From the IMG/VR virus record IMGVR_UViG_3300029049_000104: a DNA stretch of 5,442 bases. One strand, 5' to 3'. Position 1 is the first letter of the stretch; every line of letters begins with the position of its first letter. Positions 1 through 5,442 of the stretch are shown here, one piece after another. The notes beneath the pieces were generated by a model. That model was not told where the DNA came from. It did no database searches and saw only the letters and a program-made list of their open reading frames with translations. Position numbers and translations under genes: made by a program. The stretch comes from a virus. Taxonomy: Duplodnaviria; Heunggongvirae; Uroviricota; Caudoviricetes.

Positions 1-1575
1 TGGCATGAGGCGTTACTGATTGCTGTCGGGGAGGTCAATAAAGACCGTTCTCCTTATGCCAGTAAACATGCCATTCGTGATGTGCGTGCACGCCGCCAGG
101 CAAATCTGGAATTTCTTAAATCGTGTGACCTTGAAAATAAGGAAACCGGCGAGCGCATCGACCTTATCAGTAAGGTGATGGGCAGTATTTCTAATCCTGA
201 AATTCGCCGGATGGAGCTGATGAACACCATTGCCGGTATTGAGCGTTACGCCGCTGCAGAGGGTGATGTGGGGATGTTTATCACGCTGACCGCGCCGTCA
301 AAGTATCACCCGACACGTCAGGTCGGAAAAGGCGAAAGTAAAACCGTTCAGCTTAATCACGGCTGGAACGATGAGGCATTTAATCCAAAGGATGCGCAGC
401 GTTATCTCTGCCGTATCTGGAGCCTGATGCGCACGGCATTCAAGGATAATGATTTACAGGTCTACGGTTTGCGTGTCGTCGAGCCACACCACGACGGAAC
501 GCCGCACTGGCATATGATGCTTTTTTGTAATCCACGCCAGCGTAACCAGATTATCGAAATCATGCGTCGCTATGCGCTCAAAGAGGATGGCGACGAAAGA
601 GGAGCCGCGCGAAACCGTTTTCAGGCAAAACACCTTAATCGGGGCGGTGCTGCGGGGTATATCGCGAAATACATCTCAAAAAACATCGACGGCTATGCAC
701 TGGATGGTCAGCTCGATAACGATACCGGCAGACCGCTGAAAGATACTGCCGCGGCTGTTACCGCATGGGCGTCAACGTGGCGCATTCCGCAATTTAAAAC
801 GGTTGGCCTGCCGACAATGGGGGCTTACCGTGAACTACGCAAATTGCCTCGCGGCGTCAGCATTGCTGATGAGTTTGACGAGCGCGTCGAGGCTGCACGC
901 GCCGCCGCAGACAGTGGTGATTTTGCGTTGTATATCAGCGCGCAGGGTGGGGCAAATGTTCCGCGCGATTGTCAGACTGTCAGAGTCGCCCGTAGCCCGT
1001 CGGATGACGTTAACGAGTACGAGGAAGAGGTCGAGAGAGTGGTCGGCATTTACGCGCCGCATCTCGGCGCGCGTCATATTCATATCACCAGAACCACGGA
1101 CTGGCGCATTGTGCCGAAAGTTCCGGTCGTTGAGCCTTTGACTTTAAAAAGCGGCATCGCCGCGCCTCGGAGTCCTGTCAATAACTGTGGAAAGCTTGCC
1201 GACGGTGGCGATCCAGTTATGACACCTACGCCGTCTGAGCATGCCGCAGCGGTGCTAAATCTGGTTGATGGCGGTGTTATCGAATGGAATGACCCGGAGG
1301 TCGTGAGGACGCTCAGGGGCGCATTAAAACACGGGCTGAGAACGCCAAGTCGTCAGCAAAGAAACGGAAGCCCATTAAAACCGCATGAAATAGCGCCATC
1401 GGCCAGACTGACCCGGTCGGAACGAATGCAAATTACCCGTATCCGCGTTGACCTTGCTCAGAACGGTATCAGGCCTCAGCGATGGGAGCTTGAGGCGCTG
1501 GCGCGTGGCGCGACCGTAAATTACGACGGGAAAAAATTTAGGTATTTTATAGTTAATGAGTGGCCTATTTTCTAG
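1..1575 (+). CDS. A: Replication initiation endonuclease gpA (rolling-circle HUH initiator), 5'-truncated by the window edge; stop TAG at 1573..1575
   Basis: The frame of the 82..1575 ORF stays open back to base 1 (WHEALLIAVGEVNKDRSPYASKHAIRDVRA...), so the gene begins upstream of the window. HUH motif PHWHMMLF (HWH at 505..513). Paired catalytic tyrosines GYIAKYISKNIDGY (Tyr codons 658..660 and 670..672), the Y-x3-Y arrangement typical of phiX174/P2 A-type initiators. Confidence 0.9.
   Translation, partial: WHEALLIAVGEVNKDRSPYASKHAIRDVRARRQANLEFLKSCDLENKETGERIDLISKVMGSISNPEIRRMELMNTIAGIERYAAAEGDVGMFITLTAPSKYHPTRQVGKGESKTVQLNHGWNDEAFNPKDAQRYLCRIWSLMRTAFKDNDLQVYGLRVVEPHHDGTPHWHMMLFCNPRQRNQIIEIMRRYALKEDGDERGAARNRFQAKHLNRGGAAGYIAKYISKNIDGYALDGQLDNDTGRPLKDTAAAVTAWASTWRIPQFKTVGLPTMGAYRELRKLPRGVSIADEFDERVEAARAAADSGDFALYISAQGGANVPRDCQTVRVARSPSDDVNEYEEEVERVVGIYAPHLGARHIHITRTTDWRIVPKVPVVEPLTLKSGIAAPRSPVNNCGKLADGGDPVMTPTPSEHAAAVLNLVDGGVIEWNDPEVVRTLRGALKHGLRTPSRQQRNGSPLKPHEIAPSARLTRSERMQITRIRVDLAQNGIRPQRWELEALARGATVNYDGKKFRYFIVNEWPIF
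1162..1181 (+). other. Candidate replication origin / gpA nick region inside the A coding sequence (gcgcctcggagtcctgtcaa)
   Basis: In P2 and 186 the origin lies within the 3' part of gene A. This 20-mer matches what I recall of the conserved P2/186 ori nick region, but that recollection is not verified. Confidence 0.3.
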
Positions 1576-1618
1576 GCTACCATTAATGTCGGGTTTAGAT
1601 AATGCAATAATTTATTGG

Positions 1619-1654
1619 CAAGGTCTTCAGATTTAACTAAAGACCTTGTGTTTT
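1619..1654. terminator. Candidate bidirectional intrinsic terminator between convergent gene A (+) and the cargo gene (-)
   Basis: Perfect 9-bp inverted repeat caaggtctt (1619..1627) / aagaccttg (1640..1648) with a 12-nt loop, followed on + by tgttttaattgttttc. On the - strand the hairpin is followed by A/T-rich sequence. It lies 44 nt past the A stop and about 48 nt past the cargo gene stop (1696). Confidence 0.5.
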
Positions 1655-1695
1655 AATTGTTTTCTAGTCTTTTATATGAGCGTAAGTCTATGGGG

Positions 1696-2289
1696 TTACT
1701 GTGGTGGAGTCCATATTTTTAATGCGATATTTTTATATGTTTCCCCGCGTGCTGTAATAGCATTGGCGTTGAATTCAACATATTCTTCAAGATTGATATC
1801 GTTATTTGCAGATAAGAATCTTACCAGCTCAGGGTTGTTTTGATAAAAGTTTGCGCATAATGTCTGGCAAAGAACGTTTTCACCGCTATATACTGTTTTC
1901 TTTTCTGAGTACAACTTATCATTTAATGATCTGTTTCTTGAACGGGGAAGCAATATCAAACCACCAATCAAGTTTCTCTTCTGCTTGTATTCAGTGTCAG
2001 ATGAAAAACCGAAGGCTGATGAAGGCATGGTTGTATCATCAATTACTTCGCGAAGAACATGTTCTATATCAAAAGTTTTCATACCTTTGTCGCGTTGCAT
2101 ATAAACATCAAACCCTACTTTGTTTGTTAGGTTTATCTCGTTTTCAATGTAAGAGGCGATACGAGCCAGAATATAAAGCATATCTGATCTGGTTTTATTC
2201 TCGTACGCCATTTCTGGTATTCTATTAAGTAATGTATAATGCTTGTCCCATTCGTTTTGGACATAGCTTAACAATGCTGGATAATCTTT
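1696..2289 (-). CDS. C-terminal segment of the GmrSD-like cargo protein: DUF1524 / His-Me-finger (HNH-like) nuclease-type domain; stop TAA at 1696..1698. Probably the same gene as 2304..3628, split by the assembly gap
   Basis: The frame is open from the gap edge (KDYPALLSYVQNEWDK...), with no need for the TTG start the ORF track assigns at 2274. Motif DIEH (2059..2070) followed about 25 aa later by KRNLIGGLILLPRSRNRSLNDKLYSEKK, which fits the DUF1524 pattern EH ... GNLxLL ... N ... N. AT-rich codon usage matches the upstream segment. Confidence 0.75.
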   Translation of the reverse strand, partial: KDYPALLSYVQNEWDKHYTLLNRIPEMAYENKTRSDMLYILARIASYIENEINLTNKVGFDVYMQRDKGMKTFDIEHVLREVIDDTTMPSSAFGFSSDTEYKQKRNLIGGLILLPRSRNRSLNDKLYSEKKTVYSGENVLCQTLCANFYQNNPELVRFLSANNDINLEEYVEFNANAITARGETYKNIALKIWTPPQ

Positions 2290-2303
2290 NNNNNNNNNNN
2301 NNN
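2290..2303. other. Assembly gap or masked bases (14 N) inside the cargo gene
   Basis: A run of n characters is directly visible. Its length is not a multiple of 3, and the true gap length is unknown. Confidence 0.99.
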
Positions 2304-3628
2304 TCTTTAGCTAAGCTGAATGCAATATCTTTTAAATTGTCATAAGTGTTTGCTTTCTTCGATACGATTCGACTGGTGAGAATTAGATCAATATACTTAG
2401 ATATTATTTGGATTTTTTTCTTACGAACATCACGGGTATCTGATAAATCTACAGAAGATAGAATTATCATGGTTTGAAAGTTGAATTTTCTAATTCCATT
2501 ATAGAAAACGTCAGGGTAATCAGTAGTCAGATTTTTCTCAGCATTGGCAATTGTCAAGCATAAATTTGCATACTCGGGTATATCTGTTTTTGCAAAGTTA
2601 TAAAAATCATCGGAAGTAATCAGACCGATATCATGGGTTTTATCTTCAAACCACCGATGATAAGAATCATTGATTTTATCAAAATCACCAGGTGCATCGC
2701 CTTTATTTTTACCTCTAATAGTGTTTGCCCATTTAGCGCGTAATAAATTCCTGATAAATAGAGAATCTCCCTCTGGATCTTTGTCTCTAAGTTTAGACAT
2801 GGTTTTTACCCATACCTGATGGCATTCTTGACTATCTTCGGGGCTAGTGATTTTTGACAGAATAAAACCTTTTAATAGTTCAATTGCACCGAGTCTCAAG
2901 CCACGGTCATTCATTGTGACAAATACTCTATGCGCTTCTGACTCGCTTGAGACGGATATATCTATTAAAAGAACTTTTTCCATTAAATAATCAATAAAGA
3001 AAGAAACTTTTTCTTTTATTGTTGGATCCAAAGCATCCTCAATGGATTTCATTGCCTCAATTATTCTTTTATCGCTATCACTAAGATTAGTAATGCTATC
3101 TACATCATCTAGTGCGTCTGCAAGACATTTTGCGTTGTCAGTATATTTTGTGAATATTTCTTTTCTAACTTCGGAAAATTCAATATTGAAATCGCGTTCC
3201 CCATAAGAAACACTCCCAATAAAATTTTCTAAAGCCAAAGTGTCTGGAATGTGGTTATCCTTGATATATCTTTCAAAAAAAACAAGAAGAATAAATATAG
3301 ACGTGATTCGTTGTTGTCCATCAATCAACGGGCGCTTACCGTTGGTTTCAACCGCCGTAATGATAGAACCAAGAAAGTATGGAGGATAAGATGATACATC
3401 GCGTCTACCATGAGTAGACTCATAACTCAGTAAGAAAGCATTTTGAATGTCATTTAACATTTCAAGAAAATGCCTGCTTTCCCATTTATAATCCCTCTGA
3501 AAATATGGTAGTGAGTACTTGCTTTGAAAGCAGGTTTTTAAACTTAGAGTCGATGGGGTTATATACGCCATTAATACATCCTTTTGTCTGTAAAGAGCTT
3601 CTGTGAGAAGCGCATTATACTGCATCAA
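2304..3628 (-). CDS. N-terminal segment of the GmrSD-like cargo protein: DUF262 (ParB/Srx-like NTPase-type) domain plus a long central region. Start is TTG at 3626..3628 or, more likely, ATG at 3623..3625
   Basis: DUF262 hallmarks: YSLPYFQRDYKWE (QR codons at 3494..3499), PYFLGSIIT, LIDGQQRITS (DGQQR at 3308..3322), and FVTMNDRGLRLGAIELLKG. The frame is open into the gap. The 20 codons the ORF track adds after the gap (to 2225) are in an arbitrary frame and are not trusted. Confidence 0.8.
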
Positions 3629-3731
3629 GCTGCATTAGTTTTCTACATGTTAATTGATGTCTACAAAGTAGATTTGACAAGTTTTTGAGGTGGGCGTGCA
3701 CTTGCATTCAAACCGACCCATGAAGCGGGCG

Positions 3732-3750
3732 GGCGAGGCGGGGAAAGCAC
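3732..3750. other. P2-type cohesive end site (cos), 19-nt ggcgaggcggggaaagcac; the adjacent sequence up to about 3919 resembles the P2 left-end packaging region
   Basis: Exact match to the P2 19-nt cohesive-end sequence as I recall it. The following sequence (ctgcgcgctg.cggtggtgctgatt...tttttcagcgtct.agcgcgtcgtga...) is close to the start of the P2 genome. Its position between the A-side cargo and the end of Q is as expected. Confidence 0.8.
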
Positions 3751-3892
3751 TGCGCGCTGGCGGTGGTGCTGATTTTATTTTTTCAGCGTCTGAGCGCGTC
3801 GTGATGGCGTTTAGATTGTGCGCCGGGGTGTTGGTGTGTCTGCGGGATGTTTTGTGCGGTGGTGAGCGTGTGAGGGCGTGATGACGGGGTGT

Positions 3893-3914
3893 AAAAAAGC
3901 CGCCCGCAGGCGGC
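3893..3914 (-). terminator. Intrinsic terminator immediately downstream of Q on the - strand
   Basis: GC stem gccgcc (3899..3904) / ggcggc (3909..3914) with tetraloop cgca. On the - strand it reads GCCGCCTGCGGGCGGC followed by TTTTTTAC (3898..3891). It begins 5 nt after the Q stop codon. Confidence 0.6.
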
Positions 3915-3919
3915 GATGT

Positions 3920-4954
3920 TCAGCCGTTGTCAGTGTCCAGTGAGTAGTTTTTAAAGCGGATGACCTCCTGACCGAGCCAGCCGTTTATCTCGCGGATCCT
4001 GTCCTGTAACGGGATAAGCTCATTGCGGACAAAGACCTTTGCCACTTTCTCAATATCACCCAGCGACCCGACGTTCTCCGGCTTGCCGCCCATCAACTGA
4101 AAAGGGATGCGGTGCGCGTCCAGCAGGTCTGCGGCGCTGGCTTTTTTGATATTAAAAAAATCGTCCTTCGTTGCCACTTCACTGAGCGGGATAATTTTAA
4201 TGCCGTCGGCTTTTCCCTGTGGGGCGTAAAGAAACAGGTTTTTAAAGTTGTTGCGGCCTTTCGACTTAACCATGTTTTCGCGAAGCATTTCGATATCGTT
4301 GCGATCCTGCACGGCATCGGTGACGTACATGATATATCCGGCATGAGCGCCGTTTTCGTAATACTTGCGGCGGAACAGCGTGGCCGACTCATTCAGCCAG
4401 GCAGAGTTAAGGGCGCTGAGATATTCCGGCAGGCCGTACAGCTCCTGATTGATATCCGGCTCCAGCAGGTGAAACACGGAGCCGGGCGTGAAGGCTGTCG
4501 GCTCGTTGAAGGACGGCACCCACCAGTAAACATCCTCTTCCACACCACGGCGGGTATATTTTGCCGGTGAGGTTTCCAGTCTGATGACTTTACCGGTGGT
4601 GCTGTATCGCTTTTCCAGAAACGCATTACCGAACACCAGAAAATCCAGCACAAAGCGGCTGAAATCCTGCTGGGAAAGCCACGGATGCGGGATAAATGTC
4701 GAGGCCAGAATATTACGTTTGACGTAAATCGGTGAGCTGTGATGTACGGCAGCACGCAGGCTTTTTGCCAGACCGGTAAAGCTGACCGGTGGCTCATACC
4801 ATCTGCCGTTACTGATGCACTCGACGTAATCCAGAATGTCACGGCGGTCGAGTACCGGCACCGGCTCACCAAAGGTGAATGCCTCCATTTTCGGGGCGCT
4901 GGCGGTCATTTTTTTTGCCGCAGGTTGCGGTGTTTTCCCTTTTTTCTTGCTCAT
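3920..4954 (-). CDS. Q: Portal (capsid portal vertex) protein gpQ, complete, 344 aa
   Basis: A 344-aa ORF with lysine-rich N-terminus MSKKKGKTPQPAAKK... matching the size and sequence I recall for P2 gpQ. It lies immediately cos-proximal and downstream of P, as in P2. Confidence 0.93.
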   Translation of the reverse strand: MSKKKGKTPQPAAKKMTASAPKMEAFTFGEPVPVLDRRDILDYVECISNGRWYEPPVSFTGLAKSLRAAVHHSSPIYVKRNILASTFIPHPWLSQQDFSRFVLDFLVFGNAFLEKRYSTTGKVIRLETSPAKYTRRGVEEDVYWWVPSFNEPTAFTPGSVFHLLEPDINQELYGLPEYLSALNSAWLNESATLFRRKYYENGAHAGYIMYVTDAVQDRNDIEMLRENMVKSKGRNNFKNLFLYAPQGKADGIKIIPLSEVATKDDFFNIKKASAADLLDAHRIPFQLMGGKPENVGSLGDIEKVAKVFVRNELIPLQDRIREINGWLGQEVIRFKNYSLDTDNG

Positions 4955-5442
4955 CAGTAAAACTCCAGAATGGTGGATGTCAGCGGGGTGCTGATACCGG
5001 CGGTGAGTGGCTCATTTAACAGGGCGTGCATGGTCGCCCAGGCGAGGTCGGCGTGGCTGGCTTCCTCGCTGCGGCTGGCCTCATAGGTGGCGCTGCGTCC
5101 GCTGCTGGTCATGGTCTTGCGGATAGCCATAAACGAGCTGGTGATGTCGGTGGCGCTGACGTCATATTCCAGACAGCCACGGCGGATAACGTCTTTTGCC
5201 TTGAGCACCATTGCGGTTTTCATTTCCGGTGTGTAGCGGATATCGCGCGCGGCGGGATAGAACGAGCGAACGAGCTGGAACACGCCGACACCGAGGCCGG
5301 TGGCATCAATACCGATGTATTCGACGTTGTATTTTTCGGTGAGTTTGCGGATGGATTCCGCCTGAGTGGCAAAGTCCATGCCTTTCCACTGGTGACGCTC
5401 AAGTATTCTGAATTTGCCACCGGCCACCACCGGCGGTGCCAG
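4954..5442 (-). CDS. P: Terminase large (ATPase/nuclease) subunit gpP, C-terminal portion only; the gene continues beyond the window end
   Basis: The frame is open to the window edge (LAPP before the first in-window Met). Its stop TGA (4954..4956) overlaps the Q start ATG (4952..4954) as TGATG, so the two are translationally coupled. The position upstream of Q matches P2 gene order. The sequence matches my recollection of the gpP C-terminus but was not checked against a database. Confidence 0.85.
   Translation of the reverse strand: MAPPVVAGGKFRILERHQWKGMDFATQAESIRKLTEKYNVEYIGIDATGLGVGVFQLVRSFYPAARDIRYTPEMKTAMVLKAKDVIRRGCLEYDVSATDITSSFMAIRKTMTSSGRSATYEASRSEEASHADLAWATMHALLNEPLTAGISTPLTSTILEFY

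What the first reader, a model, noticed from the sequence alone, without database searches (positions are those of the whole stretch)
2225..2304. Assembly gap splits the cargo gene: one fused protein or a two-gene GmrS/GmrD-like pair
The 14-N run at 2290..2303 lies inside coding sequence. The upstream frame is open into the gap (...DNLKDIAFSLAK) and the downstream frame is open from the gap (KDYPALLSYVQNEWDK...), with no stop codon or ribosome-binding site visible on either side. This favours a single continuous gene whose real gap length differs from 14, which makes the track's overlapping ORFs 2225..3628 and 1696..2274 an artefact. The original GmrS and GmrD are separate polypeptides, however, so a short junction with a stop and restart hidden in the gap cannot be excluded.
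Basis: seen in the sequence. Interest (0 to 1): 0.5.

Follow-up and report, generated by a model that had tools for sequence, protein, structure and literature searches.

The report
Assembly gap inside one GmrSD gene
The 14-N run is an assembly placeholder for 10 real bases inside a single, intact GmrSD-family anti-phage nuclease gene in the known cargo hotspot of a P2-like prophage, so the apparent split into two overlapping ORFs is an artefact and the finding is ordinary.

Summary
The only Ns in the window are 14 Ns at 2290..2303, inside minus-strand coding sequence.

In nine complete E. coli genomes and three IMG/VR P2-like contigs, the same flanks are joined by 10 bases, CCCTCTAACA on the plus strand. 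With 10 bases instead of 14, the two frames join without a stop (...AFSLAK-DVRG-KDYPALL...). This gives one 623-aa protein (window 1696..3571, minus strand) whose DNA is identical to RefSeq WP_001695619.1.

More than 100 homologues at 51-100% identity are single chains of about 621-624 aa. None of the 15 aligned has an indel at the gap site, and Arg425, which lies inside the missing stretch, is invariant.

The protein has GmrSD_N (DGQQR motif) and GmrSD_C (EH...N His-Me finger nuclease) domains. Its predicted fold best matches BrxU and SspE.

It is the sole cargo gene between gpA and cos/gpQ, the known P2 defence hotspot. The two-gene alternative is rejected. Published analysis (citing a personal communication) reports that the founding "separate" GmrS/GmrD pair was itself one protein, split by a sequencing or annotation error.

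Residual doubt: this strain's real bases under the Ns are unseen. Interest is low.

The parts
2290..2303 (.). Run of 14 N. It is a placeholder for 10 real bases (plus strand CCCTCTAACA, minus strand TGTTAGAGGG) that supply the third base of codon Asp423 and all of Val424, Arg425 and Gly426.
   Evidence: position and count. (the same 10 nt in L001-L007). (restored junction 100% in 8 and 99.3% in 1 of 9 complete E. coli genomes). (codon mapping).
1696..3571 (-). Single GmrSD-family (DUF262 + DUF1524) gene. It is 1876 nt as written and 1872 nt (623 aa plus stop) once the gap is 10 nt. The start is the ATG at 3571 (MAYITP...), and the stop is at 1696-1698.
   Evidence: continuous ORF. (RefSeq CDS WP_001695619.1, 'DUF262 domain-containing protein'). 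(0 differences in 1926 nt against L001). (all 15 homologues start MAY(I/V)...).
3579..3583 (-). Shine-Dalgarno-like AAGGA, 7 nt upstream of the ATG at 3571.
   Evidence: Read from the sequence (upstream string ...ACAAAAGGATGTATTA|ATG).
2861..3523 (-). GmrSD_N / DUF262 (ParB-like NTPase) domain, residues 17-237.
   Evidence: PF03235, E 5.4e-31, 108.7 bits against a cut-off of 33.2.
3308..3322 (-). DGQQR motif (residues 84-88), the NTP-hydrolysis signature of GmrSD-like proteins.
   Evidence: position. (D84 G85 Q86 Q87 R88 invariant in 15 homologues). Motif definition in PMC4619093.
1741..2223 (-). GmrSD_C / DUF1524 (His-Me finger / HNH-type nuclease) domain, residues 449-609.
   Evidence: PF07510, E 1.5e-7, 31.8 bits against a cut-off of 23; the fold best matches BrxU and the SspE C-terminal domain.
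2056..2067 (-). I-E-H-V nuclease motif (residues 501-504). E502 and H503 are the predicted catalytic pair.
   Evidence: I501 E502 H503 invariant. The equivalent E/H residues are required for defence in HEC-06 and the D/H residues in BrxU.
1933..1968 (-). IGGLILLPRSRN (residues 534-545). This is the counterpart of the family motif L(G/A)NLxLLxxxN. The first Asn is replaced by Gly/Ala throughout this clade, and the second Asn (N545) is invariant.
   Evidence: Motif definition from PMC4619093.
2225..3628 (-). Artefactual ORF. It is the real gene's N-terminal 422 codons plus an upstream extension, followed by XXXXXX and a 20-aa out-of-frame tail (RLSSIVKLCPKRMGQALYIT*) created by the 4 surplus Ns.
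1696..2274 (-). Artefactual ORF. It is the real gene's C-terminal 192 codons, 'started' at an internal TTG (Leu) codon.
1..1575 (+). 3' part of the P2-type gpA replication endonuclease gene, which forms the left border of the cargo hotspot.
   Evidence: 'replication endonuclease' in the RefSeq relatives.
3732..3750 (+). P2 cos cohesive-end sequence GGCGAGGCGGGGAAAGCAC, which forms the right border of the hotspot.
   Evidence: exact match, 0 expected by chance. (identical to bases 1-19 of NC_001895, annotated cosL).
3920..4954 (-). gpQ portal protein gene.
4954..5442 (-). 3' part of the gpP terminase large subunit gene.

Best explanation
The N-run is a scaffolding or consensus placeholder of the wrong length: 14 Ns stand for 10 real bases. 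It lies inside one intact 623-codon gene on the minus strand (1696..3571). The gene encodes a single-chain GmrSD-family enzyme with three parts: an N-terminal ParB-like DUF262 NTPase domain with the DGQQR motif, a long helical middle region, and a C-terminal DUF1524 His-Me finger nuclease domain with the E-H...N motif. The four surplus Ns shift the frame, so a mechanical ORF finder reports two overlapping ORFs. The gene is the only cargo in the gpA-cos-gpQ hotspot of a P2-like (Peduovirus) prophage. By inference from characterised relatives (Eco94GmrSD, BrxU, HEC-06, SspE, DndI), it most likely protects the lysogen as an NTP-dependent nuclease that cuts or nicks incoming foreign DNA, probably DNA with modified bases, and spares the unmodified host and P2 DNA. 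What is shown here: gap length and content in relatives, ORF continuity, domain and motif content, fold, and locus. What is inferred: the cause of the gap (low coverage in 30%-GC DNA), defence activity, and substrate.
For: The gap is 10 nt, CCCTCTAACA, between identical flanks in 4 E. coli chromosomes and 3 IMG/VR contigs. The restored 136-nt junction is 100% identical in 8 and 99.3% identical in 1 of the 9 complete E. coli genomes that carry the gene. The seven full-length, uninterrupted matches span 2097 nt against the 2101-nt query.

With 10 nt the frame is continuous, and the restored gene has 0 differences in 1926 nt from L001, where RefSeq annotates one CDS. The 120 best homologues listed (51-100% identity, from Enterobacteria to Pseudomonas, Burkholderia, Aeromonas and Acetobacteraceae) are, apart from two shorter entries (one marked partial), single proteins of about 619-661 aa, most of them 621-624. 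In a 15-sequence alignment there is no indel at the gap site, Arg425 (inside the missing stretch) is invariant and Lys427 is nearly so.

In the AlphaFold model (mean pLDDT 81) residues 423-426 sit at a helix end and the following loop, in a stretch with pLDDT about 95. They are not at a domain break.

Pfam GmrSD_N and GmrSD_C both score above their gathering cut-offs. The best PADLOC matches are the GmrSD-like HEC-06 and Orf5 models. The top Foldseek hits are BrxU (7p9k) and the SspE C-terminal domain, and the top PDB sequence hit is DndI (9jfl).

The locus lies between gpA and cos/gpQ, which is the P2 defence hotspot described in PMC9122126. The 85%-identical Klebsiella homologue occupies the same slot. 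The 55-60%-identical Aeromonas and Pseudomonas homologues are single genes in other prophage or defence islets.
Against: The actual bases of this strain under the Ns are unknown. If the N-run preserved the true length (14 nt), the strain would carry a 4-nt insertion and a frameshift. I could not find the source assembly, so I cannot say which program wrote the Ns or why.

No member of this particular clade has been tested, so activity and substrate rest on family resemblance. The clade departs from the canonical GmrD motifs: there is no 'PQ' after E-H, and Gly/Ala replaces the first Asn. NCBIfam has no model for it, and the canonical type IV model in PADLOC (mREase_IV) matches only the N-terminal ~90 residues at E 3e-6.
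Confidence: 0.93

Rival explanations
1. A two-gene GmrS/GmrD-like pair: the gap hides a stop codon, an RBS and a restart, so the DUF262 and DUF1524 parts are separate polypeptides.
For: The gap lies about 25 residues upstream of where Pfam places the start of GmrSD_C (residue 449). Separate GmrS and GmrD genes are described for a minority of family members (PMC4619093).
Against: Ten or fourteen bases cannot hold a stop, an RBS, a spacer and a start. All relatives with identical flanks have TGTTAGAGGG on the coding strand, read in frame as (GA)T GTT AGA GGG with no stop. All homologues are fused, with an invariant Arg in the missing stretch. The model puts the site inside a confidently folded helical region. 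The founding two-gene case is reported to have been one double-domain protein.
Confidence: 0.01
2. A strain-specific lesion: the N-run has the true length, or hides a small indel or mutation, so in this strain the gene is frameshifted and is a pseudogene.
For: As written, the two halves are out of frame (14 mod 3 is not 10 mod 3). Disrupted alleles of this cassette do occur: one is truncated by IS903B in strain PK13.
Against: Outside the Ns, the 1926 nt compared (the 1872-nt gene plus 54 nt upstream) are identical to an intact allele, and both halves are free of stops. A 4-nt insertion that coincides exactly with the only uncalled bases of the window would be a coincidence. N-run lengths written by scaffolders are estimates (general knowledge).
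Confidence: 0.05
3. The protein is the restriction arm of a phosphorothioate-based system, like DndI or SspE, rather than a stand-alone type IV-like enzyme.
For: The best PDB sequence match is DndI (9jfl, E 2.4e-10), and SspE models also hit. Full-length PADLOC 'Orf5' models match.
Against: There are no dnd or ssp modification genes in the hotspot, which holds this gene alone. None were seen next to the Klebsiella, Aeromonas or Pseudomonas homologues. The residue aligned with DndI's PT-sensing Tyr25 is an invariant Phe. DndI is toxic without PT modification (PMC11662687), which fits poorly with a gene that moves alone between phages.
Confidence: 0.04

Closest known systems
Single-chain GmrSD type IV restriction enzymes (Eco94GmrSD, EcoCT596 GmrSD; Pfam PF03235 + PF07510)
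   Same: It has the same two-domain single-chain architecture: DUF262 with DGQQR, a helical linker, and DUF1524 with E-H...N. Both Pfam domains score above their cut-offs. It is prophage-borne, like the CT596 enzyme.
   Different: It is only distantly related in sequence: PADLOC's mREase_IV model matches only residues 8-96 at E 3e-6. The GmrD motifs are variant, with no PQ after EH and Gly/Ala in place of the first Asn. Specificity for glucosyl-5hmC DNA is untested.
HEC-06 (GmrSD-like defence protein embedded in Hma systems; bioRxiv 10.1101/2024.01.29.577857)
   Same: It is the best PADLOC family (E 9.5e-38). It is a stand-alone single gene with the DGQQR and E-H motifs that are required for defence in HEC-06.
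   Different: The best HMM stretch covers mainly the N-terminal ~270 residues. The genomic context here is a P2 prophage hotspot, not an Hma or type I RM operon. No phage-challenge data exist for this clade.
BrxU (PDB 7P9K), the BREX-associated GmrSD-family type IV enzyme
   Same: It is the top Foldseek hit (E 1.5e-4, probability 1.00) and has the same domain order.
   Different: Identity is 12%, and the overall TM-score is low (0.24-0.26) because the domain arrangement differs. Whether this protein has BrxU's RLFDS nucleotide-binding motif was not checked (one search reports it absent from HEC-06, EcoCT GmrSD and SspE). It is not linked to BREX.
DndI (PDB 9JFL) and SspE (6JIV/7DRI), phosphorothioate-sensing DUF262-DUF1524 nucleases
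   Same: DndI is the best PDB sequence match (E 2.4e-10). The SspE C-terminal domain is the best-superposing structure (TMt 0.48). Both share the DGQQR NTPase plus HNH nickase logic.
   Different: There is no PT-modification operon nearby, and the position of the PT-sensing Tyr is Phe. This protein travels alone as phage cargo.
P2 gpA-gpQ (tin/old) defence hotspot (Rousset et al. 2022, PMC9122126)
   Same: The position is exactly the same: between gpA and cos/gpQ. It is an AT-rich foreign cassette that is swapped between diverged backbones.
   Different: The main text of that paper does not mention a DUF262/GmrSD cassette. I did not check its supplementary tables.

Membership tests
GmrSD family (type IV restriction, Pfam PF03235 + PF07510) | N-terminal DUF262 / GmrSD_N (ParB/Srx-like) domain | tested here: met
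   PF03235 at 108.7 bits against a cut-off of 33.2, residues 17-237.
GmrSD family (type IV restriction, Pfam PF03235 + PF07510) | (I/V)(I/V)DGQQRLTT(I/L/V)xLL motif with DGQQR conserved | tested here: met
   LIDGQQRITSIFILL at residues 82-96. D84-R88 are invariant in 15 homologues. Motif as defined in PMC4619093.
GmrSD family (type IV restriction, Pfam PF03235 + PF07510) | C-terminal DUF1524 / GmrSD_C His-Me finger domain | tested here: met
   PF07510 at 31.8 bits against a cut-off of 23, residues 449-609. The fold matches BrxU and the SspE C-terminal domain.
GmrSD family (type IV restriction, Pfam PF03235 + PF07510) | GmrD motifs (I/L/V)(E/D)H(I/L/V)xPQ, L(G/A)NLxLLxxxN and NxxFxxKK | tested here: inconclusive
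   I-E-H-V is present and invariant, but PQ is absent (LR/LK instead). In IG(G/A)LxLLPRSRN the first Asn is Gly/Ala and the last Asn (N545) is invariant but one residue further along. DxxYxxK stands in place of NxxFxxKK. The core E-H...N is kept and the periphery is variant.
GmrSD family (type IV restriction, Pfam PF03235 + PF07510) | Both domains on one polypeptide (the predominant form) | tested here: met
   The ORF is continuous once the gap is 10 nt. There is a single CDS in the RefSeq relatives. All homologues are fused.
GmrSD family (type IV restriction, Pfam PF03235 + PF07510) | NTP-dependent cleavage of modified (for example glucosyl-5hmC) DNA; restriction of T-even phages | not testable with these tools
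   This needs purified protein or phage plaque assays.
P2-like prophage cos-proximal defence hotspot | Variable cassette between gpA and cos/gpQ of a Peduovirus | tested here: met
   gpA ends at 1575, cos is at 3732-3750 and gpQ at 3920-4954. The cassette GC is 30-38% against 50-59% for the backbone. Hotspot definition is in PMC9122126.
PT-dependent DndI / SspE systems | Genetic linkage to dndBCDE or sspABCD modification genes | tested here: not met
   The hotspot holds this gene only. No dnd or ssp genes are next to homologues in three other genera.
HEC-06 (PADLOC) | Match to the HEC-06 profile HMMs over the full length | tested here: inconclusive
   E 9.5e-38, but the best stretch covers residues 11-280 of 623 (profile positions 14-275 of 558), with a second shorter stretch.

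The most novel reading that the evidence does not exclude
This roughly 621-aa clade is widespread as solitary prophage cargo from Enterobacteria to Pseudomonas and Burkholderia, and it has a variant nuclease motif (E-H with no PQ, Gly/Ala for the first Asn). It could be a functionally distinct, still uncharacterised GmrSD-like defence enzyme whose trigger or substrate differs from glucosyl-5hmC (GmrSD), BrxU-type modified cytosines or phosphorothioate (SspE/DndI). A less likely alternative is that the Ns in this strain hide a genuine frameshift that splits the enzyme.
Probability: 0.25. Interest if true: 0.35.

Novelty: already known. Interest (0 to 1): 0.08.

Why it matters
This matters mainly as a quality-control result. 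A 14-N placeholder that is 4 bases too long turns one defence gene into two overlapping ORFs. That can mislead annotation (a spurious stand-alone GmrS or GmrD) and defence-system counting. According to PMC4619093, a sequencing or annotation error likewise gave the GmrSD family its original two-subunit description. The underlying gene is an already annotated GmrSD-family protein in an already described phage hotspot, so nothing new about biology follows from the gap itself.

Tried and rejected
- I searched the phage collection with the cargo region (megablast) and found no match. Only the backbone matches sequenced Peduoviruses.
- An exact-pattern scan of genome contigs with a variable gap found 0 hits. 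The species-representative genomes do not carry the cassette, and the source contig was not found.
- Exact look-ups of the two X-containing products, from the ATG at 3571 and the ATG at 3625, are not on record. The origin of the window, and therefore the program that wrote the Ns, remains unknown.
- NCBIfam has no family for the protein.
- The sigma-70 promoter scan found no more sites than in shuffles and none upstream of the gene, so I name no promoter.
- I considered that the assembly broke at a repeat and rejected it, because the junction sequence occurs once per genome. Low coverage in the most AT-rich part of the window (30% GC) is the more likely cause, but this is inference.
- I considered the longer start (ATG 3625 or TTG 3628, used in one RefSeq annotation) and rejected it. 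All homologues down to 51% identity begin MAY(I/V).., and an AAGGA lies 7 nt before the ATG at 3571.
Full report
**Observation**

The window contains exactly 14 Ns, at 2290..2303. They lie inside minus-strand coding sequence. The frame upstream of the gap reads ...KKANTYDNLKDIAFSLAK into the Ns, and the frame downstream reads KDYPALLSYVQNEWDKHYTLL... out of them.

- 2225..3628 ends in XXXXXX plus a 20-residue out-of-frame tail.
- 1696..2274 begins at an internal TTG.

As written, the two halves are out of register.

**What the Ns stand for**

A megablast of window 1600..3700 against 5,426 complete E. coli genomes found nine chromosomes with the same cassette. The seven full-length, uninterrupted matches span 2097 nt against the 2101-nt query.

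I read seven loci directly: four E. coli chromosomes (L001-L004) and three IMG/VR P2-like contigs (L005-L007). In all seven, the identical flanks are joined by the same 10 bases, CCCTCTAACA on the plus strand. A 136-nt junction rebuilt with these 10 bases is 100% identical in eight of the nine genomes and 99.3% in the ninth.

With 10 bases the minus strand reads GCT AAA GAT GTT AGA GGG AAA GAT, which is A K D V R G K D. There is no stop, and the two frames join into one ORF of 623 codons. The Ns hide the third base of Asp423 and all of Val424, Arg425 and Gly426.

Outside the gap, the restored gene region has 0 differences in 1926 nt from L001. RefSeq annotates L001 there as a single CDS, WP_001695619.1, 'DUF262 domain-containing protein'.

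**One protein, not two**

A search of 5.8 billion proteins returned an essentially identical 623-aa cluster of 169 members whose representative differs by one residue, V253A. It also returned more than 100 full-length homologues at 51-85% identity. They come from Klebsiella, Dickeya, Cronobacter, Morganella, Serratia, Aeromonas, Pseudomonas, Burkholderia, Lysobacter and acetic-acid bacteria. Nearly all are about 621-624 aa.

In an alignment of 15 of them there is no indel at the gap site. Arg425 is invariant and Lys427 nearly so.

An AlphaFold model built on that alignment has a mean pLDDT of 81. It places residues 423-426 at the end of helix 410-424 and the short loop before helix 429-452. 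That stretch has pLDDT about 95, so the gap is inside a folded helical region and not at a domain break.

Ten bases cannot hold a stop, a ribosome-binding site and a start codon. The two-gene reading is therefore rejected for all sequenced relatives. For this strain it is left with only the residual doubt that its own bases have not been seen.

**The founding 'two-gene' case**

That premise is outdated.
- Machnicka et al. 2015 (PMC4619093) found the fused form to be predominant. They state, citing a personal communication from L. W. Black, that the founding E. coli CT596 pair turned out to be a double-domain protein.
- A later preprint says the same.
- He et al. 2015 (PMC4437046) purified a single-chain enzyme.

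**What the gene is**

Pfam finds two domains, both above their gathering cut-offs:
- GmrSD_N (PF03235): residues 17-237, 108.7 bits against a cut-off of 33.2.
- GmrSD_C (PF07510): residues 449-609, 31.8 bits against a cut-off of 23.

The motifs compare with the family definitions as follows:
- The DGQQR NTPase motif (residues 84-88) is invariant in the clade.
- The nuclease I-E-H-V motif (residues 501-504) is invariant.
- Asn545 is invariant.
- The clade lacks the 'PQ' that usually follows E-H.
- The clade has Gly/Ala where the family motif LGNL has its first Asn.

Database matches are:
- PADLOC's best models are the GmrSD-like HEC-06 (E 9.5e-38) and 'Orf5' families. SspE and the canonical type IV model score much weaker.
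- The best PDB match by sequence is DndI (9JFL, E 2.4e-10).
- The best matches by fold are BrxU (7P9K) and the SspE C-terminal domain (probability 1.00).
- NCBIfam has no model for the protein.

**Start codon**

The start is the ATG at 3571. Every homologue begins MAY(I/V).., and AAGGA lies 7 nt upstream. The longer ORF from 3625/3628, used in one RefSeq record, is probably an over-extension.

**Where it sits**

The window is a P2-like (Peduovirus) prophage, laid out as follows:
- The 3' part of gpA runs to 1575.
- The cargo gene is convergent with gpA.
- The 19-nt P2 cohesive end GGCGAGGCGGGGAAAGCAC lies at 3732-3750. It is identical to cosL of NC_001895.
- The tQ terminator follows.
- gpQ is at 3920-4954.
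- The end of gpP follows.

This gpA-cos-gpQ interval is the known P2 hotspot that holds tin/old in P2 itself and many defence systems in relatives (PMC9122126).

The cassette has 30-38% GC against 50-59% for the backbone. It is identical between prophages whose gpA and Q genes differ by about 2.6-2.7%, as expected for a recently exchanged module.

Homologue contexts are:
- The 85%-identical Klebsiella homologue occupies the same slot.
- The Aeromonas homologue is a solitary gene at a prophage end.
- The Pseudomonas homologue is a solitary gene next to a reverse transcriptase, an AbiTii protein and a Dam-type methylase.

**Mechanism (inferred)**

By analogy with characterised relatives, the DUF262 domain binds and hydrolyses NTP through DGQQR and controls the C-terminal His-Me finger nuclease. 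The nuclease cuts or nicks invading DNA.

Mutating the corresponding Q/R and E/H residues abolishes defence in HEC-06. The corresponding D/H mutations do so in BrxU, and DndI R87A loses both ATPase activity and defence.

The gene travels alone, without any modification genes. A modification-dependent (type IV-like) specificity that spares unmodified host and P2 DNA is therefore the most economical reading. A phosphorothioate-linked role like that of DndI or SspE is unlikely.

None of this has been tested for this clade.

**Why the gap is there (inferred)**

The junction is single-copy in every genome, so a repeat is not the cause. The Ns fall in the most AT-rich 300-nt bin of the window (30% GC), where short-read coverage is often poor.

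I could not find the source assembly. The program that wrote the Ns, and whether the length of 14 was an estimate, remain unknown.

**Verdict**

The finding is a correct reading of an artefact. The gene is single, intact in all relatives, already annotated, a member of a known family, and located in a known hotspot. Interest is low.

The only open points are the unseen bases of this strain (about 5% chance of a real lesion) and the untested specificity of this GmrSD-like clade.

Noticed in passing
window 1576-3700 compared with 1-1575 and 3916-5442 (restored coordinates; compared with L001, L002, L005 and L007): The cargo cassette is identical or nearly so (0-2 differences in 1926 nt) between prophages whose gpA (43-51 of 1575) and gpQ (27-58 of 1035) differ by 2.6-5.6%. 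GC drops from 50-59% to 30-38% across it. This looks like a recently exchanged module in diverged P2-like backbones.
   Followed up: partly
L003 2386-4475 (E. coli PK13, NZ_CP074028.1): In this strain an IS903B element truncates the same gene. RefSeq annotates the remaining C-terminal 366 codons as a stand-alone 'HNH endonuclease family protein'. This is a real case of a pseudo 'GmrD-only' gene. The phage DNA beyond the IS is replaced by capsule-export genes.
   Followed up: partly
L004 4682-5662 (E. coli PEC41): An IS5 element is inserted between the intact cargo gene and cos. At the alignment joint, window bases 3635-3638 match on both sides of the insertion, which looks like a 4-bp target duplication. 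The gene itself is untouched.
   Followed up: no
window 3690-3881 (+): A 63-aa GTG ORF spans the cos site. One RefSeq relative annotates it as 'hypothetical protein' (L002 4293-4478). It overlaps the packaging signal and is probably not a gene.
   Followed up: no
window 1606-1661: A 25-nt imperfect inverted repeat (72% complementary; core CAAGGTCTT...AAGACCTTG, followed by a T-rich run) lies between the convergent gpA and cargo genes. It is likely a shared or bidirectional terminator. The standard terminator scan missed it because of its long loop.
   Followed up: no
window 3571 compared with 3625/3628 (-): RefSeq relatives disagree on the start codon (623 aa in L001, 641 aa in L002). Conservation of the MAY(I/V) N-terminus down to 51% identity, and an AAGGA 7 nt upstream, favour the ATG at 3571.
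   Followed up: yes
window 1933-2067 (-), residues 501-545: The whole clade lacks the 'PQ' after the catalytic E-H and has Gly/Ala instead of the first Asn of the family's LGNL motif. The residue aligned with DndI's phosphorothioate-sensing Tyr25 is an invariant Phe24.
   Followed up: partly
L010 3291-8976 and L011 849-6354 (Pseudomonas): The 55%-identical homologue sits between a reverse transcriptase (RVT_1) with a small HTH gene and an AbiTii protein, next to a Dam-type methyltransferase and a phage lysis gene. This is a compact prophage defence islet.
   Followed up: no
window 3899-3914 (-): A GC-rich hairpin followed by a T run corresponds in position to the tQ terminator annotated in P2 (NC_001895, 160-181).
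   Followed up: partly
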